A stretch of DNA of 49,335 bases, the filler included, from Catajapyx aquilonaris (taxonomy: Eukaryota), in assembly GCA_000934665.2 (NCBI GenBank). It is 2 parts of 2 records of this genome, joined end to end, with 100 filler letters (N's around TTAATTAATTAA, not from the genome) between each part and the next. Parts side by side here need not be neighbours in the genome. Positions count along the whole stretch, not along the records: positions 24,850 to 49,335 come from JYFJ02005503.1; 1 more part is not named here. The stretch is one strand, 5' to 3'. The translations under genes were made by a program, and so were the position numbers. Position 1 is the first letter of the stretch. Each line of letters starts with the position of its first letter. Of the stretch, positions 9,801 through 37,701 are shown piece by piece. Below the pieces are notes generated by a model. That model was not told the origin of the DNA. It saw only the letters and a program-made list of their open reading frames with translations, and made no database searches.

Positions 9801-12414
9801 GACACTGCCAAGTTCCATTGGCTGTTTATAATAAAGGGAAGTAATGAGGACAGTTTTGAGAAAAATGACTTTGAAGGTCATACTTGTGAAATTAATTCAG
9901 TGTTCTTTTCGGTCATTTATTGCAGAAGTATGCAGATTTCGCCACCTTGATTTTAACTGAATGAAGTGCCGGTACTATCCTTTGGGTGTATGTTCCTGGG
10001 CATAATTCAATTTAGACATTTTTGTGGGTTGACCCATTATTGCATACCACTGTCCAATTTTCCCTCCGCTTTCGATCACTTCTGTGTACGTTGACTGACA
10101 CCTAGTTCAACGTATGTACCAGACGTAACACACGGGTTTGCTGCTATAAATTTATAAATAAATAACATATTTTGATAATATACGTATGTAAGGCCAAAAA
10201 AAAATTGTTTGCCTGTGGCAACAGAATATTGTTGGTGATTACCATAGAATCAGGCCTATAAATGGTTTCAAATTTTGCACTTCCCGCAATTATCCACGCT
10301 CTTTTTTTCCCCATGCAAAGAACGGGTACCGCTGCTAGTGCAATATATCACTATAATAATTACTATGTAGAAACGAAGACAAAAAATCACCCTAAGGCCA
10401 GTTTTGCATCTGCTGTACACCCCCCTCACATGTTCTGCAGTTCCTGCCTTGCACTGAAGGGAAAGGAGCCCTCCGAACACGACAATTCTCAACCTGGAAC
10501 CTCCCATTAAATGTGCGCAATGTTTCAAATAGTCTGCATCAAAAACATCACTACTACTCACAGCCTTCATCAGATTATGAAATGATTTCAGGTCTTGTTG
10601 GACGGTCTTGATGTGGTTGTTGAGGTTGATGTCACATAGTAGTTACTATCTTGGAAATTTTCTGGAATATTGGAACCTACCTCATTTACTGATATTATAA
10701 TTTTGTCTCGTTTTACGCCGATTCACTTTGCGCCGCTATGTTGCTGGAACCTATTAATGGCGTAAAAGGGGTACTTCCTGCATCCTCTCCATATCTTCTG
10801 AGTAAGCGTAAGCGAAAATCTGGGTGTTTTCGGCCTACCTGACAGCGGAGGAATTACATTATTAAAGGGTTGCAAGTTGCACACTGAAATTTGACGTTAC
10901 GGGCGTTAACGTGGGTGAACTATTCGTTTCCCACTGCATTGCCACATGTTAAGTGCAGCCACAGGGTTGCATGAACAGTTTTTGGTGAAATATTATGGTA
11001 GAAAATTACTCTTTACCACTAATGAGTCATTTAATATTAGCACTTTCAACCAAGGCTGGAAAAAGTACAATTCATAAAAATTATCCAATATAAATGTATA
11101 ATCCTCCCTATTTCTTTGGCCACATTTAGTAGGAAAGAAAGACAAACTTGGCATTTTGATGTACAACTTACTCAGTTGGGGATATAATTAGTCCAAAACT
11201 GAGTTAACATTTTCATCGTGACAGCGACTGTCATTTTTGTTAGGGATAACTTACACTAAAATAATATAATTGTGCGCAACAGCAAATTATTCATGCAGGA
11301 GCTCTTTTAATAAAAATTAGCGAGGATGAAGGGAAATGGCGACCCATTGCACATGGACGTCCCCAGGAATGATTTGCCATGATTGTAAAACCATGTGTAT
11401 CTGCATTTATTTCAGGAAAAAAATGCCGAAGAGAACTTGCAGAATGGGGCCCAGCAAGACATGCACAGAGGGAGACTCTTGGGGGGGAAGGTTTGTCATA
11501 TTTGCAAGAAAAGGTTTAGTCTGGCAGGGTATTTGAATATCCACATGAGAACCCACACAGGGGAGAAGCCATTCATATGCCTGATTTGCAAGAGAACGTT
11601 TAGTCGGTCGGAGCATTTGAAGATACACATGAGGATGCATACAGGGGAGAAGCCATTCAGTTGCAAGGTTTGTGAGAGAAAGTTTAGTCGGTCAGGAGAT
11701 TTGAATGTCCACATGCGGGTTCACACAGGGGAGAAGCCATTCAGTTGCATAATTTGCAAGAGAAAGTTTAGTGAGTCAGGAACTTTGAATATCCACATGA
11801 GGACCCACACAGGGGAGAAGCCATTCAGTTGCGAAGTTTGTGAGAGAAAGTTTAGTCACTCAGGAAGTTTTACTCAACACATGCAGGTTCACACAGGGGA
11901 GAAGCCATTCAGTTGCATAATTTGCAAGAGAAAGTTTAGTCACTCAGTAAATTTGAAGATACACATGAGGATGCATACAGGGGAGAAGCCATTCAGTTGC
12001 AAGGTTTGTGAGAGAAAGTTTAGTCAGGCAGCAAATTTGAATTCACACATGAGGACCCACACAGGGGAGAAGCCTTTCAAGTGCAAGGTTTGCAAGAGAA
12101 AGTTTAGTCAGTCAGAACATTTGAATGTCCACATGCGGGTTCACACAGGGGAGAAGCCATTCAGTTGCAAGATTTGTGAGAGAAAGTTTAGTGAGTCTGG
12201 AACTTTGAATAGACATATGAGAACCCACGCAGGGGAGAAGCCATTCAGTTGCCAGGTGTGTGAGAGAAAGTTTAGAGAGTCAGGTCATTTGAATAACCAC
12301 ATGAGGACCCACACAGGGGAGAAGCCATACAGTTGCGTAATTTGCAAGAAAAAGTTTGCTCGCTCTGGACATTTGAAAGATCATGTTGTTAGATGGCACA
12401 AAGGAGAAAAGTGA
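3862..12414 (+). CDS. Multi-C2H2 zinc-finger protein; exons 3862-4188, 8996-9118, 11416-12414 (~482 aa; 2 isolated fingers, acidic VKVEP region, 11-finger array)
   Basis: ATG in GCAGCCATGG context. Exon 1 has CPQCPNNVFKRKIDLRAHSFTH and VKVEPEEEE; exon 2 has CAHCDSAFATKRDLERHMLKKH; exon 3 has 11 CxxC...HxxxH fingers with TGEKP linkers. All junctions are GT-AG, phase 0. Joining of the three exons is inferred. Confidence 0.75.
4790..5370. repeat. Diverged direct repeat pair (~300 bp period), probably inside a DNA-element relic
   Basis: AGGTCACTAGTTTGTGA, GTCACTGAAACC and GGTGGGGATATGCACCCGTA each occur twice, about 290-310 bp apart. Confidence 0.7.
6080..6822. mobile_element. Non-autonomous element with ~200-bp terminal inverted repeats and AT-rich core
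   Basis: 6080-6283 is the reverse complement of about 6617-6822. AATT occurs at both ends, and the paralogous site (about 20421-20437, CTCATAATTTGCA) is empty. Confidence 0.9.
6883..7158. mobile_element. hAT-type MITE
   Basis: TIRs CAGAGGTTCCCAAACT / AGTTTGGGAAACTCTG; exact 8-bp target duplication GTATAGAG (6875-6882, 7159-7166). Confidence 0.9.
7933..8180. mobile_element. MITE, PIF/Harbinger-like ends
   Basis: GGCCGCTACACAAATTCGGCGGAAGGCTGAGCGG and CCGCTCAGCCTTCCGCCGAATTTGTGTAGAGGCC form ~34-bp TIRs. The superfamily is inferred from the termini only. Confidence 0.8.
11416..12414 (+). CDS. Zinc-finger array exon (11 Kruppel-type fingers, 84-bp tandem repeat)
   Basis: ORF 11395-12414; TTTCAG acceptor at 11415; repeated CACACAGGGGAGAAGCCATTCAGTTGC unit. 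Confidence 0.97.
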   Translation, partial: EKNAEENLQNGAQQDMHRGRLLGGKVCHICKKRFSLAGYLNIHMRTHTGEKPFICLICKRTFSRSEHLKIHMRMHTGEKPFSCKVCERKFSRSGDLNVHMRVHTGEKPFSCIICKRKFSESGTLNIHMRTHTGEKPFSCEVCERKFSHSGSFTQHMQVHTGEKPFSCIICKRKFSHSVNLKIHMRMHTGEKPFSCKVCERKFSQAANLNSHMRTHTGEKPFKCKVCKRKFSQSEHLNVHMRVHTGEKPFSCKICERKFSESGTLNRHMRTHAGEKPFSCQVCERKFRESGHLNNHMRTHTGEKPYSCVICKKKFARSGHLKDHVVRWHKGEK

Positions 12415-24749: not shown

Positions 24750-24849
24750 NNNNNNNNNNNNNNNNNNNNNNNNNNNNNNNNNNNNNNNNNNNNTTAATTA
24801 ATTAANNNNNNNNNNNNNNNNNNNNNNNNNNNNNNNNNNNNNNNNNNNN
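24750..24849. other. Assembly gap containing an artificial six-frame-stop linker
   Basis: 100-nt N block with TTAATTAATTAA at 24794-24805. Confidence 0.95.
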
Positions 24850-25061: not shown

Positions 25062-28009
25062 CTATTTCAAGCAGGATGGCGAACCTTCAAGTTCCTGTTC
25101 GTGTGTCGTTTCATCACGATCTTTCTGCAGGGGAAATACTGTGGTGAAGTGTGCAGGAATATTTTACCTTCACCCTTGAAGATATTCCTGGAAGATATTG
25201 CTTCATTTTATTCTGGTCCAAATTCCCTTCTTCAAAGGACCACTTTTCCGGAGGATCTCTCAAAACGAATATGACACGAAGACGGGTGTCTGCCTCTGTG
25301 ATGAAACATTTGCTTGAATTACTCCTGCAAAATATATTTATCAAGCCAATACATACCTGCTTGGGCAGACAGTTCCCGGAAGAACAACAGGTTGTCCAAG
25401 CAATCGGCGCAGTGGAAAAGGGTGATTTGAGTGTGGTCTTCCGGGTTGTCCAGGACAGTCCGAATAAGCTGGACAGCCGGAGTGACCCCAACACCACCAC
25501 TGATCAGGACCATATGGTCCAGGACGTTTGGTTCATACTCGAATCCTCCACAAGGACCTCGAAACTCCATCGTATCGCCTGAAATCCAGCACAATTTGAA
25601 GTAATTGCTTGGTTTGACAATATTATAGGTAAATTAGTACCGGGTCTGATTTGTCTGAAAGCTTTTGACACAATTCCGTCCGATTCAAGCTTGACGACAA
25701 TTTCCAGCTGTCCGAAACGATGTGGGGGTGACGTTGGAGAGAAGAATCGGGTCTGAACAATTTTTCCATCTTCTGGTGACAATCTCACCTGCATATAGCT
25801 CGTGTTTTTTCAATTATTTCAATGACTGACTATTATAGACCTGATTACCTGAACGTATTGTCCTGGAAGACATGCAATGTGGTCCGTCCCATTTGGAAGG
25901 GCAAACATCATGATGAAAGTGTCTATCCCGCACTCGAATTTTGACACAAGCTTGAGTGAGCTGTACTTTTCCGGATGCAAACCTGGACCATGATTGGATC
26001 CATCAGGAGTGGTTAATACCTGAAAACGAATGTACAGTATGTAGTGATTAGGGACACCGCTTTTTTGGTTGACTTACTTGAACCAAATGCTTAGGAGGAG
26101 CTGTGTTGAGCGGGTTGTCAAAGTCTTCTTCACCATTTGCATGTGGACTTTCAGATTCCGCTTGTCGCATCAACTCTTTTGCCAGGAGAGCCTTGTCCTC
26201 TGGTTTCATCTTGTTCAGCTCTCGATGCAATGTGGGAAGATGCGGATTTCGGTCCCTGTAGAATGAATTATGTCAGTGTTTCTATATGGCTGATTCATAC
26301 ACCAATATTTTTACCACGGATCAAGTCCTTCCTGGCCGTACACACACAGCTTTCCCAGCAGAACCTGCAATATTTCGTTGGACGGACCCATCACCCATCC
26401 AGCTTTGGAATCGCGCAGAAATCTCTCGACGCCTGTGAAGAAATCGCTGTAGTGACCCAAAATTCTTATAGAAATGACTGGTATCACCTGTTTCTACTTT
26501 GTATCCGGATCCTCCGCAAGCTCGAAGCATGTTGTCTGAGACATCGCTGCTGGTCGTGGTCGAGATGTGTTTCAGCATGGCTGCACTTAGCACATACTTT
26601 GATCTGACAAACAAGTCATCTTTGGATATCTATAGTTCTTGTTCAATTTTTTTGCAACATGCATTACCTTGCTTTGAAGTTCGGATCTTTGTAAAGCGAC
26701 CAATCGCAGTTGTTGGTAAGTGTGTCGAAATGAGCAGCGTACGAATAAACTGCTATCCTGCTGGCCATGATGTTGGCTAGGCTTACTCCAAAATGAGTCT
26801 GAAAAATCGTGTGTCAGTGACGTTCTTCATCGGAATTTGGTTGTGCTAATTATACCTGCACCGGAACGTAATCGCAGATCCGGAAGCTGTTGTGTGCGCT
26901 GCTCTTGGACGTGACGTGCCTCTTGGCCGCGTCCATAGCCGCCAGAGACACTCCATTGTAACACGCGGAGAAGAACAGCATGCCCAGTGTCATGTGGTGC
27001 TCCTCATTTTGAGCATCGGCCATACCTGTCAGCAGGTACGCAATTACTCAGTTGTTCACTCTAGCAACCCAACAGTGTACCTGTCCCTCCGATGATTCTG
27101 TCCTTCTTGAGTATCCCTTCGCAGACAACAGGACCCGACTGGTTGCCCCGCATTCCCATGGCGTCCCAATTGTTCGTGTATGTCCGGACTTCTTCCTGCA
27201 AAATGTTGAATTTATTGTCCAACTTTGCAACTTTTAAAACTCTAATTGACAGACCTTGAACATCAAGTAGTGAGTGGTGCTTGACATGTCACCGGCCAGG
27301 TCAGGGTTTGCACAGTTGACCACATACCAATCCGCATATCCGGCCGAGGTGCACCAACTTCCGTATTTAAGCAACCGGATATGCTCTTGGTCCACAGTCA
27401 TGCATTTTGAAGTAAGAGGTACCCACAAGTGAGCTCCTGTGTATATGAAAGGCAGTTTGCTGAGCATTTATTTCTCTCTATAAGAATGTAGCTTACCTGA
27501 TGCTGGATCGCTGACACTCTCAGTACCGACCAGCTTCTTCTTATCGACGTTTCTCAGCAACTCTTGTATGATGGGACTGTCGTGGTGATGTCCAAGCAGG
27601 AGACTCAGTCCGGTCAGATGCATAGCTATACATGTGACTGTGTTAATCAGGTTCTTATCGACATATATTAGTACTTACTGTACACCATAGCAGTGCTTGG
27701 ACATCCATATCTGGCTATAGTCTCGATAGCCATTGCAGCCCCCACGTGATTCTCGCCTCTTCCGCCGAACTCTTTGGGCACGAATATTCCAAGCAAACCC
27801 AGGTCGGCCAATGCGTCCAGAATGGCCCTCGGAAATTCACTATTTTTGTCGTACCTGGCCTGCAATTATGGGGATTAGTCGCGGTTTTGGTGCCAGTACC
27901 GGCTCGAGAAATTACTCACGGCATTGGGCCTGATGACCTTTTGGCATAGGTCTGTTATTTCCTGTTGGAGTTTCTTCTGATCCGGAGTCAAGTACCAATC
28001 GGGTTCCAT
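25062..28009 (-). CDS. Paralog A: ACAD-fold flavoprotein fused to cytochrome-b5-reductase/FNR-like domain (~15 exons; start and last exon uncertain)
   Basis: Hand-spliced GT-AG exons give MEPDWYLTPDQKKLQ...LGLLGIFVPKEFGGRG...YGCPSTAMVY...WDAMGMRGNQSG...CGGSGY...VERFLRDSKAGWVMGPSNE...PGQYVQ...RFFSPTS...RGPCG...LISGGVGVTP. An in-frame upstream exon at about 28315-28390 may extend the N-terminus. Confidence 0.88.
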
Positions 28010-28994
28010 CTCTGGTTTTCCTAATTAAATTTGTGGAACCCTCCTCGACTGTACTGTAAACTTGTATGCAATATTACTAGTTTGACTCATAAAGCTAATA
28101 GCATGGATTGTGTAACAACTGCAGTCTCAATAACGTGGGAAGGAATTTGCCTGGGCATATTCGCAGCCGACTATACATCATTCCATCTAATTTATATTGC
28201 AGTGAAAAGTTTGCAAACTTTTACATTGCCTGTCAGATAGGACCATGAAAGTATAACCAAAGAAAATGAACTAATATTGACTATAAGTTATGCCAGAAGC
28301 AATATATTACTCACCTGACTCAGGGAAATCACTTGTTACCTTCGTATGAATCGCACCTGCTGTAAAACTCGGCTCTTTTGCACGGAATGCCTGAATGCAA
28401 AGTGATGTGTAACGGAATTAAAACTTAGGTGAGACTGAAAAAACTGTGTGCCGTGCATTCAAATGGCATGTTTGATGTGTTGTGCATATATGATGAGTCA
28501 GGAATTAGGAAAACCAGTATTACTGGTTTGTAATATTTTTTGTTGGATTAGGTGCTTCCTGGTTGTTACTGAAATGCGTAAGGAATGTTCTTAGAATGAT
28601 CACCGGTGGTAGCTTACTTGTTTGAGATTTAGTTAATGAACTAGGCGAGAAATCTGGAAAAAAATTATACATCACTTTCCATTTCGTTAAAAACTTGAAA
28701 TATATTCATCTCTAAAATTTTATTAGCTACTTATTAAGCTGAACATACAATTACAGCATACAAAAACATGGAACAGTATTGAATAGTACTCAACCAATAT
28801 TAATATATTATGGCACTAGCTCACAGGAGCTGCCAATATTGCATCAGCTGCGCGCATTTTGATTCACTGAGAATAATACTTGGTTGTAAATGAGGAAGTA
28901 CATAATTATGAAGTAGCGTGCCTTGTCACTAATTAAACATGCTAGTTATTTGGTTATTATTTGAAGGGTGTTTGATTACGACACGCCCTTGACA

Positions 28995-31900
28995 TTAGTC
29001 CTTGGAGGAGTGAGAAGAGAGATGCGCATTTCTTCCGTACACAGTTCGGATAAACTCGGTTCCGAACTGACCGTACACGAATATCGAATCCGAAGGGAAA
29101 GACATCCAACGAAGACTTTGCATGCAGGAAATCACCACACTTGGTCCAGCGCAGATTATAACCTTAGGAAGAACATATTTTATTTAAAAGGCATTCTATT
29201 CGCAAAAAAAGATTTATCAGTTTGTTCGCTCTTCCACTTACTTTTTCTCTTATGCCGTTGGGAACTTGGAGATATTTCTCGAACTTCTTACGATCCAACA
29301 GGCCTTCTTCGCCTTCCCAGTTTTCGGGCGGTTCTCTCAATATGTAGATGATTTCCATTCGCTTGTCAGATTCTGAAATAAAAAAACCAGAGTACGGATA
29401 AATAAGCAACATGAGCAAAAGGAGGCTAAGAAAGTTCGATGGACAAAATTCTCATTACCTGCATAGTTGTCGAGTTCCTTCCGACAGAGTATGTCTTCCT
29501 CTGAGTCGACTGCGTAGAATAAGGTCACTTTGGTCTTATCATCGGGGTTGGCCTGGACACTTCTGAGAAGCTGGAGGGCAGGAGTGACCCCGACCCCACT
29601 GCCCACAAGAACCAGTCTCTCCAGAGTGTTTGGAAAATACTCGAATCCGCCGCAAGGACCACGGAATTCCAGTTCGTCACCTGTATACATGGCAGCGGAA
29701 ATATTATACGATGACGTCAATATTAGGGACTATCCTGCGGGTTCACCTGGTTGTATATCCTTTAGCTTCTGAGAGAGCAGTCCTTGTGACTCGTACTTGG
29801 TGATGACCTGCAGAATGCCCTTCTGGTCTGGCCGAGACACTGGGGAAAAGAAACGCTCCTGGGGCACCTCACCTGGCGATTGGATCCTCACCTGAAGAGT
29901 AATTAATCTTGTAATCGCCGTTCAATTACGATTAGTTGCACACACTCTCAGTACCTGTATGTACTGGCCTGGTACGCATCCCAAGTCACTGGTCGGTTCC
30001 TTGAGCGCGAATGTGAACTCGCCCGTCTTGTATGCGATCTCTTCCTTGCTGATCAGCTTCAGAGGCGTGTACCTGTCAGGGTCAAGCCCTGCCGATTGAC
30101 CCGAGGTGACCTGGCTACCCGTGACTGGAGGCCGGGTATTAAATGGGTTGTCAAAGTCCTCCTCTCTGTGCGACACAACTCGTTTGGACACATCCACATC
30201 CTCCTGAAGCTCCTTAATCAACTCTTGCTTCTCCTCAATTGTCATCTTCTTCAGCTCGCGGTCAATGGACGGACGACTCGCTTTCTTCTCTCTGGAAGAA
30301 GGGGTCAATTTACAAGAGGTCACAGTGTACAGTAATGTGAACGTACGAGATGTCAAACTCCTGGAATCCGAGCAGACACAGCTTCCCTATGATCTGCCTT
30401 GATATCTCATTGGAAGGAGCCATGACCCAACCGGCCTTTCCGTCTCTAAGGTACCGCTCCAACCCGAGCTCCGTCTTGTACCCGGTACCTCCGCAAGTGT
30501 GCATCATCATGTCCACCACCTCGCTAGTGTTGGTCGTGCTCTGTAGCTTTATCTGGTAGAACCACGAGGAGTACGGGGACCTAGGAAGATGACCCGGGTT
30601 CTTATGAAGAGACCAGTCGTTCCTGGACTTTTCATCCAGGAGACGGGTCACAGAAAAGAGTGCCAGTCTGGTCATGTTGGTGCCACTGATAGCGTCACCG
30701 AAAGAGTCCTGCGTGGAAGAATCAGCCAATCAGCAACATGTTTATAGGAAACCGGACCGGTTCTGGAACCGAACCGGTTGCTGCTAAGGACGCCGTACCT
30801 GAATAGTAGGGTAGTCGCAGATGCGCATTCCAACGTCGGCAAATCCTTTGGTGGTGACATGTCTTTTGGCCAGGTCAATGCTGCCCATTGCGATACCATT
30901 ATAGCAGGAGGATAAAAGCAGAGTAAAGTAGGCCTCACACTCTTCTCCAAGAATCCGTCCCTCTCCTGGAATTCATCATCGTAATTAAAATCAGTGATCC
31001 GTATCGGTGGAAGTCTCACGGACTGAAGAGAGACGCAAGTCCGCGAGATTCGCAGTTACTTGCCGCTATTGCCGATGAGCCTTTCCTTCCCGAGGATTCC
31101 CTCGCAAATGACGGGTCCTGATTGGTTCCCGTGCATTCCCAAGGCCTCCCATTCGTCAGCGAAGGCCCGGACTTCTTCCTGAATTAAACCAACGGCAGCG
31201 CGATTTATTTAATTGTTGTACCATTATGAAGTCGGTTCTTACCTTCATGAGCAAATACAAGCTGAGGTCATGAGGGTCGCCCTTGTAGGTCGGACTTGTC
31301 GCGTGGATGCCGTACCAGTCGGCAAATCCGGCACTAGTAGCCCATGCGCCGTACTTGATCAGACGGAGCTTGTCGTCCGGAAGTATCTTGCATTTGGACG
31401 TCAGCGGAAACCAGAAGTGACCACCTGTCCAATCATCATTAATCGTCAATTAATTATCACATTATGAACGTCACATGAAAATTAAGATTAATTTGAACAA
31501 CTGGATCGATCCATATCAAGAAAGCTGCTAATTTGTTAACACTTCTTGCTGGTTTGTATTATCTGAGAGGACTCCAACCCGCTTTTTGACCTCTGCACAC
31601 ACGCTATCAGCGACCCACTTTTAATTTCAAGTGCTTTCAGTGCACTGTGAGAACTTGTAGTTGTCATTTCTGTTGGCAGCCACAAAATTAATTACGAAAT
31701 TCCATTATGGTGTACTGAACCTGTTGAAGGATCGCTGGTGGCGCTGGTGCCCACCAGTTTCTTCTTGTCCAAATTCCTCAGGAGGTCCTTTATGAACGGG
31801 TTGTCGTGATGGCGAATCAGCAGCAACGATGTGCCGTACAGATGCATAACTACGTTAGACAAATGTTATTTAACCTCCTCATGTATTTATGACCAGTGAT

Positions 31901-32291
31901 TATCTTACCATAAACCATGGCAGTGCTTGGACAACCATATCTTGCGATGGTTTCAACCACCATGGCAGCCCCCACGTGACTTTCGCCTCTTCCTCCCAAC
32001 TCTTTAGGAACCAGCAGTCCCAACAGTCCATGTTCAGCCAAAGCGTTCAAACTGGCTCTCGGATAAGTGTAGTGCTTGTCGCAATTAACCTGGATCATAC
32101 GCACAAAATAATATTGCAAATAATGCCACATACGTGAACAACATTACCGCATTTGGTCGTATCTTCTTCCTGCACAACTCGATGACCTCTTCTTGCAGCT
32201 TCTTCTGCTCCTTGGTTAGAAACCAATCGGGATCAAACTCAGCTCCGATGCCCCAGAAGGGATGCTGTCCCCAATTTTTCGACGCGTCCAT
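28995..32291 (-). CDS. Paralog B: ACAD-fold flavoprotein fused to cytochrome-b5-reductase/FNR-like domain (12 exons, ~760 aa)
   Basis: Exons 32291-32148, 32089-31909, 31849-31721, 31424-31243, 31178-31064, 30965-30799, 30708-30347, 30291-29955, 29891-29747, 29680-29459, 29372-29242 and 29162-28995 sum to 2283 nt in one frame. ACAD motifs: GLLGLLVPKELGGRG, LGMHG, CGGTGY, LERYLRD. FNR motifs: PGQY, RFFSP, GLLS, RGPCG, GSGVGVTP, IICAGP. Confidence 0.92.
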
Positions 32292-35650: not shown

Positions 35651-37701
35651 ATGTTGGTACCCATCGCTGTTATGTGTGCCCTGCACTTGGTCGGAGCAAC
35701 ACCAGGTGAGCATTGTGTATACCACAATTTTTTGAGGGGATGTTTATCGCTAAAATGTGGCAACATGTATCCCCCAAAGTAGGTGAAGGTTACTACAGTT
35801 CCGTACGAAACATTTTTTGATTTTATTTTTCATGAACAGCCGATTCGTACGATTTCATCGTGGTCGGAGGCGGTTCTGCCGGTGCAGTGGTAGCCAACAG
35901 ACTGTCCGAAGTGCCCCAATGGTCCGTCCTACTGGTGGAAGCCGGAGGTAAGCCTACCTACGAGTCGGACGTACCGTACCTGGTATCGGTTGAGAAGTTC
36001 ACGAGCCTGGACTGGGGATATCAAACCGAGCCCGAACCGGACAGTTGCATCGGACATGAACATCGTCCTCTTCCTTGGCCCAGAGGGAAGGTTTTGGGAG
36101 GAACCAGTGTGCTCAACTCCATGTTGTACTCTAGAGGGAACCGACACGACTTTGACCTCTGGTCCAAATTGGGCAACACCGGTTGGGGTTACGACCAGGT
36201 GCTACCTTACTACCTCAAGTCCGAAAACAACCACAATGCGGAGTACGTCAAGAGTGGGTACCATGCCACTGGAGGTTACCTCTCAGTTGGAGAAGCGCCT
36301 TTCCTCAGCAAGATCGGAGAGGCATTTCTGAAGGTCAGAGCTCAGGGCTGGGTCACTTATTGTTACTACCACTTTCCGGTTCATTTGCAGGGTGCTTCTG
36401 AAATGGGGTACGACGTACGGGATTGCAATGGGAAGAATCAGACCGGGTTCATGGTCATACAAGGGACTGTGGACCATGGGAAGAGAGACAACACCTACAG
36501 GGCCTTCCTGGAGCCGGTGATGGGCCGGCCCAATTTGGACATCTTGCCCAACGCTAGAGTACAGAGAGTGCTCATTAACAGTAAGCCAAATTTTAATTAA
36601 ATCGTGTACACTGCTTTACACTGTCCGCATTTGCAGGCGTAAATAAGTCGGCATACGGCATCGAGGTGATGTGCAATGACAGCAGCGTGCACCAAATCAT
36701 GTCCAGCAAAGAGGTCATCCTGAGCGCAGGAGCCATCAATTCCCCTCAGCTTCTTCTGCTCTCTGGAGTGGGTCCAGCTGACCACCTCACCTCCGTTGGG
36801 GTGCAGGTGACCCTCGATCTTCCAGGGGTTGGTCTGAACCTGCGTGACCACCTGTCCTCGGTGGCTACTTTCCTGGTGGAGCCTCAGGTCAGTCTGAAGC
36901 CTGAGAGGGTTCTGAACGTCAACAACTTCCTGGAGTGGCTGGAGAAAGGGGATGGTCCACTCAGTGTTCCAGCAGCTGAGGAAGGAATGGCCTTTCTCAA
37001 CACAAACTACGCTCCAAAGTCAGGCGACTGGCCGGACATCGAGTTCCAGTTGGTCAGCATGTCCCCTGCTTATGAGGCCATGCAACATCATATGTTCGCG
37101 ATGGACCAGGAATCATGGGCCAAATACAGGAAGGACCTGGACAACATGGACAGCTGGATGGTGGTGGCCACTCTGATGAGGCCTAACAACACTGGAGAGG
37201 TCAAGCTGAGAAGCAGCGACCCCAACGACCCTCCTCTGATCGCTCCCAACTGCTTGAGTGACCCGAATGACCTGGAGCCGCTTCTGGAAGGGTTCAAACT
37301 CGGGCTGGAACTAGCCAACACCAGCCTGTTCATGGAGATGAAATCCACATTCTGGAGTCCACCAGTTCCAGCATGCAAGGAGTACAAGCCCGGAACAAAC
37401 CAGTTCTGGAGGTCAGGTCATACCCATTCTTAACCTCAGTCGGTTTTACAGTGTATTTCTATGTGACAGGTGCTACGTGCTACACACTGCCTTCGCCAGC
37501 TTCCATTCGACTGGCACGTGTGGGATGGGATCGGACGACACTTCTGTAGTGGACAATACCCTGAAGGTTCATGGGTTGACCGGACTTCGTGTCATAGACG
37601 CGTCCGTCATGCCCACCCAACCCACTGGAAACATCAACGCGGTCACAATAATGGTTGGAGAGAAAGGATCGGACATGATCAAGGCTGATTGGAACGCCTA
37701 A
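35651..37701 (+). CDS. Secreted GMC (glucose-methanol-choline) oxidoreductase, glucose-dehydrogenase-like; exons 35651-35705, 35840-36333, 36391-36580, 36637-37411, 37470-37701
   Basis: Signal-peptide-like MLVPIAVMCALHLVGA; FAD motif YDFIVVGGGSAG; RGKVLGGTSVLN; EVILSAGAINSPQLLLLSGVG; catalytic His/Asn pair in FHSTGTCGMG and GNINA. Splice phases are consistent. Confidence 0.95.

What the first reader, a model, noticed from the sequence alone, without database searches (positions are those of the whole stretch)
28995..32291. Single-chain fusion of an ACAD-fold flavoprotein with an NAD(P)H flavin reductase module: candidate self-sufficient redox enzyme
Seen: twelve exons splice into one ~760-aa frame. 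The ACAD-fold tail, the linker (EEDFDNPFNTRPP) and the start of the reductase domain lie in one exon (30291-29955), so the fusion is not a gene-model join. The linker motif is conserved in paralog A (EEDFDNPLNTAPP). Known: canonical animal acyl-CoA dehydrogenases hand electrons to ETF and carry no reductase domain, whereas ACAD-fold group D monooxygenases (DszC, HpaB/HsaA, KijD3) need a separate reductase to supply reduced flavin. Inference: this is a two-component system fused into one polypeptide, driving oxygenation or reduction of an unknown substrate. I know of no characterised animal enzyme with this architecture.
Basis: partly seen in the sequence, partly recalled or inferred. Interest (0 to 1): 0.9.

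Follow-up and report, generated by a model that had tools for sequence, protein, structure and literature searches.

The report
Self-contained flavin oxygenase of bacterial descent
An invertebrate gene joins a bacterial-type flavin enzyme, whose bacterial relatives sit in trimethylamine-breakdown gene clusters beside a separate flavin reductase, to an animal-type NADH reductase in one protein, so it probably oxidises small amines without a partner, but nobody has tested this.

Summary
A 12-exon minus-strand gene (32291-28995) gives one 760-aa frame: acyl-CoA dehydrogenase (ACAD) fold, about 80-residue linker, cytochrome b5 reductase (b5R)-type module. Contigs of a public run skip all 11 introns as modelled; one contig joins the ACAD end to the reductase. 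A tandem paralogue lies at about 25171-28021.

The architecture recurs in 51 of 52 database relatives: many crustaceans, a chiton, and a brachiopod. All are uncharacterised or misnamed.

The ACAD half is collinear with, and 46-53% identical to, complete bacterial ~468-aa proteins. Of 80 bacterial loci, 51 hold a trimethylamine N-oxide (TMAO) demethylase gene. 22 hold an HpaC/HsaB-type flavin reductase on the same strand. The classic ACAD catalytic glutamate is absent.

Best reading (about 0.5): a self-sufficient NADH-driven flavin monooxygenase for small methylated amines. It looks like a bacterial two-component oxygenase fused to a eukaryote-type reductase.

Against this, fold and profile searches place the ACAD half nearer true dehydrogenases than known ACAD-fold oxygenases. 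No activity is shown.

Novelty: a new variant of a known kind.

The parts
32148..32291 (-). Exon 1, with ATG at 32291-32289. Encodes the N-terminus, which aligns from residue 1 with the bacterial proteins and has no presequence-like extension.
   Evidence: The joint 32089/32148 is seen in X1 contigs. The first ~90 nt of the CDS are not covered by the listed contig pieces.
31909..32089 (-). Exon 2, Acyl-CoA_dh_N
   Evidence: E 4.6e-11; joints
31721..31849 (-). Exon 3
31243..31424 (-). Exon 4, the middle beta domain with the motifs SDPSTGGHFWFP and WATSAGFADWY
31064..31178 (-). Exon 5, which ends at a GC-AG intron (G|GCAAGT)
   Evidence: Joint 30965/31064 with 98 nt skipped.
30799..30965 (-). 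Exon 6, start of the ACAD C-terminal helical domain
30347..30708 (-). Exon 7, the rest of the ACAD C-terminal domain. GWVMAPSNE stands where ACADs have the catalytic-Glu motif.
   Evidence: Acyl-CoA_dh_1, 1.5e-6
30292..30346 (-). Intron 7, 55 nt (GT..AG). Its removal joins the ACAD half to the linker in frame. If retained, it gives a stop at 30312-30310.
   Evidence: Joint 30291/30347 sits in a contig with 104 nt on the far side.
29955..30291 (-). Exon 8: the post-ACAD tail shared with the bacterial proteins, the animal-specific linker (EEDFDNPFNTRPP) and the start of FAD_binding_6
29747..29891 (-). Exon 9, FAD_binding_6 with RFFSPVS (the RxYS-type FAD motif)
   Evidence: 7.4e-5
29459..29680 (-). 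Exon 10, NAD_binding_1 with GSGVGVTP
   Evidence: 1.5e-12
29242..29372 (-). Exon 11
28995..29162 (-). Exon 12, with CAGPSVV, a C-terminal extension and the stop TAA at 28997-28995
   Evidence: The X1 contig runs on to 28768, which is probably 3' UTR.
25171..28021 (-). Tandem paralogue A with the same architecture; tblastn segments are 30-56% identical to the focal protein. Its last exon and first ~18 residues were not found. N runs at 24750-24793 and 24806-24849 lie where the last exon should be.
   Evidence: Two spliced joints at low depth.

Best explanation
The gene encodes a soluble, single-chain, two-flavin enzyme.

Proposed mechanism: the C-terminal b5R-type module takes a hydride from NADH (or NADPH) onto its own FAD. 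It then reduces the flavin held in the N-terminal ACAD-fold module. That reduced flavin reacts with O2 and oxygenates a small amine. The most likely substrates are methylated amines, such as trimethylamine (TMA) to TMAO.

Proposed origin: the oxygenase half descends from a bacterial two-component enzyme of methylated-amine catabolism. In protostome animals it became fused to a eukaryote-type reductase, which replaces the separate bacterial flavin reductase.

Shown here: the exon structure, the spliced contig, the domain order, conservation across animals, homology to the bacterial family, and the bacterial gene neighbourhoods.

Inferred: flavin-to-flavin electron flow, use of O2, and the substrate.
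For: 1. One transcript-like spliced contig bridges the ACAD tail, the linker and the reductase. All 11 introns are confirmed.

2. 51 of 52 relatives found with the linker-plus-reductase part carry both ACAD and FNR-type domains. They come from decapods, a stomatopod, an isopod, amphipods, krill, barnacles, an ostracod and a chiton. Lingula has the same protein. An ESM Atlas cluster of 142 members is 100% Eukaryota.

3. The animal residues 1 to about 470 are collinear with whole bacterial ~468-aa proteins. Identity over the ACAD part is 46-53% for the window protein and about 59% for crustaceans. Of 195 columns invariant in 12 bacterial sequences, animals keep a median of 83% and the window protein keeps 139.

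4. Bacterial context over 80 loci by tblastn: Tdm-like gene in 51; Flavin_Reduct gene in 22, all on the same strand and 13 within about 310 bp; GmaS-like in 28; ammonium transporter in 22; copper amine oxidase in 24; N-methylglutamate-synthase-like in 12. Two neighbours pass NCBIfam's equivalog cut-off for TMAO demethylase (1270.6 and 1223.7 bits against 1100). The reductase scores best against the reductase components of HPA hydroxylase C1 and HsaB, whose oxygenases have the ACAD fold. The Tdm architecture and pathway are taken from passages of PMC12560246 and PMC5520151.

5. The ACAD catalytic Glu (YEGT) aligns to Gly in the family and Ala in the window protein. The alternative IVD-type position and the neighbouring Arg are Phe/Leu/Ser.

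6. The reductase half scores best against eukaryotic b5R (2eix, E 2.6e-43; TM 0.91) and keeps the FAD and NAD motifs.

7. An AlphaFold model of a crustacean orthologue has pLDDT 88 and pTM 0.89 over 774 residues. This suggests a fixed packing of the two halves.

8. In a tree rooted with 6 more distant ACAD-like proteins, the animal sequences form one clade (SH-aLRT 95-97). That clade lies inside the bacterial family, and an actinobacterial group branches off first (98).
Against: - No enzyme activity, flavin content or substrate is known for any member, bacterial or animal.
- Profile and fold searches rank true acyl-CoA dehydrogenases above known ACAD-fold oxygenases. Profile: 3pfd E 3.9e-35 against KijD3 7.2e-15 and DnmZ 1.1e-13. 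Fold: VIA Z 46.2 to 40 for dehydrogenases against 38.4 to 34.2 for 5z8t, TdsC, C2, DnmZ and HsaA.
- Some CoA-dependent ACAD-family enzymes also lack the catalytic Glu; 3-sulfinopropionyl-CoA desulfinase is one (recalled).
- b5R modules normally pass single electrons to haem proteins, not to flavin oxygenases.
- None of the roughly 41 cyanobacterial loci has the flavin reductase neighbour.
- One bacterial locus (L065) holds an FMO-like gene next to tdm as well as the ACAD-like gene, so the family is not simply a Tmm substitute.
- The window holds no Tdm-like or other amine-pathway gene.
- Crustaceans are reported to have FMO genes, to which TMAO synthesis is usually ascribed (passages of PMC9511220).
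Confidence: 0.5

Rival explanations
1. NAD(P)H-driven reductase. Electrons go from NADH through the b5R FAD to the ACAD FAD, and the reduced flavin reduces a substrate instead of O2. The substrate could be an enoyl-CoA-type double bond, as in acryloyl-CoA reductase where ETF feeds an ACAD, or an N-oxide such as TMAO.
For: The fold and profiles are closest to true ACADs. NCBIfam's second-best hit is acryloyl-CoA reductase AcrC (85.7-111.6 bits). The direction NADH to ACAD flavin is thermodynamically easy (established redox potentials, recalled). A MOSC-domain gene sits next to the bacterial gene in 8 of 80 loci; MOSC proteins reduce N-oxides in other systems (recalled).
Against: The acid/base Glu needed for C-alpha/C-beta chemistry is missing at both classic positions. 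No CoA ligase, CoA transferase or ETF gene was seen among the bacterial neighbours scanned. The HpaC-type reductase partner is typical of oxygenases.
Confidence: 0.15
2. Dehydrogenase or oxidase with a built-in electron outlet. The ACAD flavin oxidises a substrate (an amine C-N bond, a nitroalkane or a thioester). The b5R module replaces ETF and passes the electrons on to NAD+, quinone, a haem protein or O2.
For: ACADs normally need an external one-electron acceptor, and b5R modules are one-electron carriers. Nitroalkane oxidase is an ACAD-fold oxidase and matches the model at Z 34.5. The closest NCBIfam family, Rv1679/FadE16, is named a dehydrogenase (189.6-204.4 bits, below its cut-off of 600).
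Against: Electron flow from a flavin dehydrogenase up to NAD+ is unfavourable for most such substrates (recalled). The bacterial partner is a flavin reductase that supplies reduced flavin. No catalytic base is present. The Rv1679 literature search listed only omics-type papers by title and abstract; none was opened.
Confidence: 0.15
3. Not one protein. The ACAD part and the reductase part are separate products (intron 7 retained, or an internal start in exon 7 or 8), or the locus is an assembly or contamination artefact.
For: Intron 7 is only 55 nt, and its retention would end the frame after the ACAD domain. X1 contig depth is 36 over the reductase and linker against 7-8 over the ACAD exons, and the contigs break at 30452-30463. 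The Armadillidium record is tagged UNVERIFIED_CONTAM.
Against: A spliced contig crosses intron 7 in frame with 104 nt of exon 7. The other introns of the gene are equally short, 58-98 nt. Exon 8 itself holds both the bacterial-type tail and the start of the reductase. 51 of 52 relatives are fused, many on contigs of 10-338 Mb. Eleven spliceosomal introns rule out bacterial contamination.
Confidence: 0.04

Closest known systems
Group D (ACAD-fold) two-component flavin monooxygenases: HPA hydroxylase C2/C1, HsaA/HsaB, DszC/TdsC, the nitrososynthases KijD3 and DnmZ
   Same: The ACAD fold (Z 34-38). No ACAD catalytic Glu. The bacterial relatives are encoded beside an HpaC/HsaB/C1-type flavin reductase. 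N-oxygenation of amines is known chemistry for this group. Group D having the ACAD fold is taken from passages of PMC6165268.
   Different: Sequence and fold are nearer true dehydrogenases than any of these oxygenases. In animals the reductase is covalently fused and is b5R/FNR-type, not HpaC-type. No member has been characterised.
Tmm, the bacterial FMO-type trimethylamine monooxygenase
   Same: In bacteria the ACAD-like gene occupies the place next to tdm where tmm usually lies. 7 of 10 non-cyanobacterial genomes checked have no FMO-like match of 100 bits or more. The proposed reaction is the same.
   Different: An unrelated fold and a single-flavin NADPH mechanism. One locus (L065) has both genes.
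StyA2B and ImoA2B, natural oxygenase-reductase fusions of group E
   Same: A two-component flavin monooxygenase made self-sufficient by gene fusion (passages of PMC6165268).
   Different: A different oxygenase fold (Rossmann type), a different reductase type, and bacterial rather than animal.
Acyl-CoA dehydrogenases (for example IVD-like 4kto and isobutyryl-CoA dehydrogenase 1rx0)
   Same: The best structural and profile matches (Z 46.2, rmsd 2.0 over 371 residues). FAD-contact motifs of the WxTS-G and GG-GY--E-ER--RD type are kept.
   Different: No catalytic Glu, a 16-residue family insert, a C-terminal tail, no presequence-like N-terminal extension, and a fused reductase instead of ETF.
NADH-cytochrome b5 reductase (Physarum 2eix, yeast Cbr1, human CYB5R3)
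   Same: The C-terminal 250 residues: E 2.6e-43, TM 0.91, and the FAD_binding_6 plus NAD_binding_1 motifs.
   Different: No membrane anchor and no cytochrome b5 partner domain. It has a ~30-residue C-terminal extension and is fused behind an ACAD-fold module.
Rv1679/FadE16 family (NCBIfam NF049984)
   Same: The best-scoring curated family for both the animal and the bacterial proteins (189.6-204.4 bits).
   Different: The scores are far below the equivalog cut-off of 600. The Rv1679/FadE16 search listed only omics-type papers by title and abstract; none was opened.

Membership tests
Group D two-component flavin monooxygenase | Oxygenase with the acyl-CoA dehydrogenase fold | tested here: met
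   AlphaFold model of orthologue P0069 (pLDDT 88). It matches ACAD-fold chains at Z 34-46, including TdsC, C2, DnmZ and HsaA.
Group D two-component flavin monooxygenase | A separate NAD(P)H:flavin reductase partner | tested here: met
   In the bacterial relatives, a Flavin_Reduct gene lies on the same strand in 22 of 80 loci and within ~310 bp in 13. It scores best against the C1, HsaB and FerA reductases. In the animal protein the partner is a fused b5R-type module instead.
Group D two-component flavin monooxygenase | O2-dependent oxygen insertion through a flavin C4a-hydroperoxide | not testable with these tools
   Needs enzyme assays.
Group D two-component flavin monooxygenase | Closer kinship to known oxygenases than to dehydrogenases | tested here: not met
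   Profile: ACADs E 3.9e-35 to 1e-31, against KijD3 7.2e-15 and DnmZ 1.1e-13. 5z8t, titled a flavin-containing monooxygenase, scores 1.2e-29. Fold: VIA Z 40-46 for dehydrogenases against 34-38 for oxygenases.
Acyl-CoA dehydrogenase (EC 1.3.8.x) | A catalytic glutamate at the MCAD-type (YEGT) or IVD-type position | tested here: not met
   The family has G, and the window protein has A, at the YEGT Glu. The IVD-type site and the neighbouring Arg are F/L/S.
Acyl-CoA dehydrogenase (EC 1.3.8.x) | Acyl-CoA substrate and ETF as acceptor | not testable with these tools
   No ETF or CoA-activating genes were seen among the bacterial neighbours scanned. This is only indirect evidence.
NADH-cytochrome b5 reductase / FNR superfamily | FAD_binding_6 plus NAD_binding_1 with the RxY(S/T), GxGxxP and CGP motifs | tested here: met
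   The window protein has RFFSPVS, GSGVGVTP and CAGPSVV; the orthologues have CGGPTM.
NADH-cytochrome b5 reductase / FNR superfamily | A cytochrome b5 (haem) acceptor or domain | tested here: not met
   No haem or b5 domain appears in the 760-aa product or in its orthologues.
Tmm (FMO-type TMA monooxygenase) | FMO-like fold (PF00743) | tested here: not met
   The Pfam hits are ACAD and FNR-type only. Any likeness is in the proposed role, not in membership.

The most novel reading that the evidence does not exclude
Protostome animals (crustaceans, a chiton, a brachiopod, perhaps priapulids) carry an anciently acquired bacterial amine N-oxygenase. It became self-sufficient by fusion to a host b5R module, giving an FMO-independent, soluble route from trimethylamine (and perhaps dimethylamine) to the osmolyte and piezolyte TMAO. 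The fusion would also be a natural Rosetta stone. It would show that the widespread bacterial ACAD-like gene next to tdm is the oxygenase of an undescribed two-component methylamine monooxygenase.
Probability: 0.3. Interest if true: 0.85.

Novelty: new variant of a known kind. Interest (0 to 1): 0.7.

Why it matters
- TMAO is a major osmolyte and pressure protectant of marine invertebrates, and its synthesis is ascribed to FMOs (passages of PMC9511220). A second, unrelated enzyme would change how TMAO budgets, deep-sea adaptation and seafood TMA/TMAO chemistry are studied.
- For microbiology, the animal fusion independently ties the bacterial ACAD-like protein to a reductase partner. It points to an unrecognised step in methylated-amine cycling, found in at least 486 genome stretches.
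- For evolution, this is a candidate case of bacterium-to-animal gene transfer in which the lost partner was replaced by fusion to a host domain.
- For biocatalysis, it would be a naturally self-sufficient ACAD-fold oxygenase.

Tried and rejected
- Searching with the linker exon alone for longer proteins gave nothing.
- No whole genome is held for the window, so the copy number in the genome and the organism's identity stay open.
- Look-ups of earlier notes by place and by sequence gave nothing.
- No RNA holder was listed for the stretch. The one holder, X1, has no recorded library type. Its contigs are spliced, but contigs cannot show transcript ends or levels.
- Complex prediction on the two halves was not folded, so the docking of the halves rests only on the single-chain pTM.
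- Literature searches found no description of the fusion or of an ACAD-like TMA oxygenase:
  - Rv1679 / FadE16;
  - trimethylamine + acyl-CoA dehydrogenase + flavin reductase + tdm;
  - trimethylamine monooxygenase + two-component + acyl-CoA dehydrogenase;
  - TMAO demethylase + acyl-CoA dehydrogenase;
  - tdm / tmm / dmmDABC / flavin reductase;
  - 5Z8T / 5GJ7;
  - acyl-CoA dehydrogenase + cytochrome b5 reductase + horizontal gene transfer + crustacean.
  Subscription journals are not covered by this library.
- A simple replacement of Tmm was considered and weakened. Of 10 non-cyanobacterial genomes, 3 have an FMO-like match of 100 bits or more (one inside the locus), 3 have a Dmm-type HODM gene, and 4 have neither. 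All 5 cyanobacterial genomes have FMO-like matches: one of 120 bits covering profile positions 2-218 and a second, 38-bit piece in the same 534-aa frame, the others of about 39-44 bits. PF00743 also matches in 7 of 14 control genomes, so it is a blunt probe.
- The first tree was distorted by a wrongly called ORF (L035), which I left out of the second tree.
- The last exon and the start of paralogue A were not found.
Full report
**Observation**

The minus strand between 32291 and 28995 carries a 12-exon gene. Reading the sequence and splicing it by coordinates gives 2283 nt, which is 760 codons and a TAA with no internal stop. There are ten GT-AG introns and one GC-AG intron (G|GCAAGT). Introns are 55-98 nt, except one of 296 nt.

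Pfam on the single exon frames finds Acyl-CoA_dh_N, Acyl-CoA_dh_1, FAD_binding_6 and NAD_binding_1 in that order.

The only public run that holds the stretch (X1, library type not on record) has contigs with joints at all 11 predicted introns, including the GC-AG one. A 1334-nt contig runs from 28768 through exons 12-8, across the 55-nt intron 7, and 104 nt into exon 7. The end of the ACAD domain, the linker and the reductase are therefore on one spliced molecule.

The listed pieces leave 30452-30463 and the first ~90 nt of the CDS uncovered. Depth is 36 over the 3' part and 7-8 over the 5' part. Contigs cannot interpret this difference.

A tandem paralogue with the same architecture and the motif EEDFDNPLNTAPP lies at about 25171-28021. 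Its ends were not found, and two N runs sit where its last exon should be.

The Pfam ACAD domain ends in exon 7, not exon 8. Alignment with stand-alone bacterial relatives shows what exon 8 does encode:
- the family's post-ACAD tail, which matches the last ~45 residues of the bacterial proteins;
- the animal-specific linker;
- the first ~35 residues of the reductase.

The argument against a gene-model join therefore stands.

**Distribution**

A search with exon 7 found two kinds of relatives at similar identity, 45-55%:
- bacterial ~468-aa ACAD-family proteins;
- ~770-aa proteins with ACAD plus FAD_binding_6/NAD_binding_1 domains (17 of the 120 proteins listed).

A second search used the linker-plus-reductase part of the Procambarus protein. 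It returned 52 proteins at E <= 1e-20, and 51 of them carry both kinds of domain. They come from decapods, a stomatopod, an isopod, amphipods, krill, barnacles, an ostracod and the chiton Liolophura. One cluster holds a 767-aa Lingula protein, and a partial Priapulus protein appeared.

No named hit is from an insect, a nematode or a vertebrate. All names are 'uncharacterized' or borrowed (ACAD9-like, b5 reductase 1, nitrate reductase-like, YngJ, fadE25).

At 50% clustering, only two full-length fused representatives exist among 1.84 billion proteins. An ESM Atlas cluster of 142 members is 100% eukaryotic.

The window's own protein is not in the databases. It is 43-52% identical to the fused proteins in the alignment (47-52% to the full-length ones).

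A protist (Rigifila) has a shorter protein with an analogous ACAD-type-2 plus FNR-type architecture.

**The two halves**

The reductase half is a typical eukaryotic b5R:
- Physarum 2eix, E 2.6e-43;
- TM 0.91;
- VIA Z 29.1 to yeast Cbr1.

The ACAD half is collinear from residue 1 with complete bacterial proteins. It has no N-terminal extension that could be a mitochondrial presequence. Identity over the ACAD part is 46-53% for the window protein and about 59% for crustaceans. Of 195 columns invariant in 12 bacterial sequences, animals keep a median of 83% and the window protein keeps 139. Of the 104 columns also conserved in at least 90% of 44 animal sequences, the window protein keeps 96.

The ACAD catalytic glutamate (YEGT) is Gly in the family and Ala here. 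The IVD-type alternative position and the adjacent Arg are hydrophobic or Ser.

The AlphaFold model of the Procambarus orthologue, built with 44 fused sequences, has pLDDT 88 and pTM 0.89.

**Bacterial context, the key lead**

The bacterial family is widespread. It is 69-89% identical across phyla.

Among the 80 loci kept, tblastn with exemplar neighbours finds:

| Neighbour | Loci out of 80 |
|---|---|
| DUF1989+GCV_T (Tdm-like) | 51 |
| GmaS-like | 28 |
| PhyH | 28 |
| Copper amine oxidase | 24 |
| Flavin_Reduct | 22 |
| Ammonium transporter | 22 |
| N-methylglutamate-synthase-like | 12 |
| MOSC | 8 |
| DmmA-like | 6 |
| HODM-like | 6 |

The Tdm-like gene lies always downstream. All 22 Flavin_Reduct genes are on the same strand as the ACAD-like gene, and 13 lie within about 310 bp. 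None is in the roughly 41 cyanobacterial loci.

Two Tdm-like neighbours pass NCBIfam's equivalog cut-off for TMAO demethylase (1270.6 and 1223.7 bits against 1100). The reductase scores best against the reductase components of HPA hydroxylase C1, FerA and HsaB. The partners of C1 and HsaB are ACAD-fold oxygenases.

In Xanthobacter (L070) the gene order is ACAD-like, flavin reductase, tdm, then dmmA-like and HODM-like. This is the tmm-tdm-dmm layout of the known pathway (passages of PMC5520151 and PMC12560246), with the pair in the place of tmm.

An earlier AI note of this scan (e1-1222343) reached the same reading for the bacterial pair. It is not independent evidence.

**Complications**

Ten non-cyanobacterial genomes were checked:
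- 3 have an FMO-like match of 100 bits or more. In L065 it lies next to tdm in the same locus as the ACAD-like gene.
- 3 have a Dmm-type HODM gene.
- 4 have neither.

The ACAD-like enzyme is therefore not simply a Tmm substitute. It may N-oxygenate more than one methylamine.

Fold and profile comparisons also put the ACAD half closer to true dehydrogenases (VIA Z 40-46; 3pfd E 3.9e-35) than to the known ACAD-fold oxygenases (Z 34-38; KijD3 and DnmZ at 1e-13 to 1e-15).

**Origin**

In a 58-row tree, the 19 eukaryotic rows form one clade (SH-aLRT 97). A second tree was rooted with six more distant ACAD-like proteins:
- the family is monophyletic (100);
- an actinobacterial group splits first (98 for the rest);
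- the eukaryotic clade (95) lies inside the bacterial radiation, next to an unnamed metagenomic bacterial cluster (P0160, 88).

With a eukaryote-type reductase behind it, the simplest history is one bacterium-to-animal transfer, followed by fusion and patchy loss. The trees used the quick method and the outgroup branches are long, so this is a lead and not a result.

**Mechanism proposed**

1. NADH reduces the b5R FAD.
2. The b5R FAD reduces the flavin in the ACAD-fold pocket.
3. That flavin reacts with O2 and N-oxygenates a small amine, with TMA to TMAO as the simplest case.

Steps 1-3 are inferred from family knowledge and context. None is shown.

Rivals are a substrate reductase, a dehydrogenase with a built-in outlet, and separate products. 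They are listed with their tests.

**Verdict**

The architecture is not unique to this genome, but it is uncharacterised. I file it as a new variant of a known kind: a self-sufficient fusion of a two-component flavin oxygenase. It comes with a concrete, testable link to methylated-amine and TMAO metabolism.

Noticed in passing
window 35836-37698 (+): A GMC oxidoreductase gene (GMC_oxred_N and GMC_oxred_C across three adjoining frames) lies 3.5 kb upstream of the focal gene on the other strand. This is the family of choline dehydrogenase. Any link to amine or osmolyte metabolism is untested.
   Followed up: no
window 11389-12411 (+): A long single-frame C2H2 zinc-finger array: 10 matched stretches to Pfam zf-H2C2_2 and 7 to zf-C2H2.
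   Followed up: no
window 24750-24793 and 24806-24849: Two 44-N assembly gaps lie exactly where the missing last exon of paralogue A would be expected.
   Followed up: partly
window 30130-30170 (linker, exon 8); alignment A2: The linker motif DFxNPFNTxPP is nearly invariant in 44 animal sequences (F481, P484 and F485 invariant), although the model's confidence there is only 61-75. NPF is a known EH-domain ligand motif (recalled). Its role here is unexplained.
   Followed up: no
window 30452-30463 and the depth table: X1 contigs break here. Depth falls from 36 (reductase and linker) to 7-8 (ACAD exons). This could be 3' bias or a shorter transcript; contigs cannot tell.
   Followed up: no
L065:9928-13738 (-) and L065:6881-8401 (+): Virgifigura deserti has an FMO-like gene adjacent to tdm and, in the same locus, the ACAD-like gene with its flavin reductase. 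In this genome the two oxygenase types coexist.
   Followed up: partly
genomes G001-G010: FMO-like and Dmm-type (HODM) genes look complementary among genomes that carry the ACAD-like/tdm pair: 3 have only FMO-like, 3 have only HODM, and 4 have neither. The sample is small and genome completeness is unknown.
   Followed up: partly
P0204 (Rigifila ramosa, 659 aa): A protist protein with Acyl-CoA_dh_N/M/dh_2 plus FAD_binding_6 plus NAD_binding_1. This is a second, probably independent, fusion of an ACAD-fold module to an FNR-type reductase.
   Followed up: partly
PMC3750580 (shrimp HGT paper), gene 'deha': A b5R-like shrimp EST was reported there as a fungal transfer under strong purifying selection. 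It might be the reductase half of this family. I did not compare sequences.
   Followed up: no
L007:8552-9349 and 7 other loci: A MOSC-domain gene sits between the ACAD-like gene and the Tdm-like gene in some cyanobacteria (8 of 80 loci). The cyanobacterial Tdm-like protein is shorter (630 aa) and scores below the equivalog cut-off (837 against 1100).
   Followed up: partly
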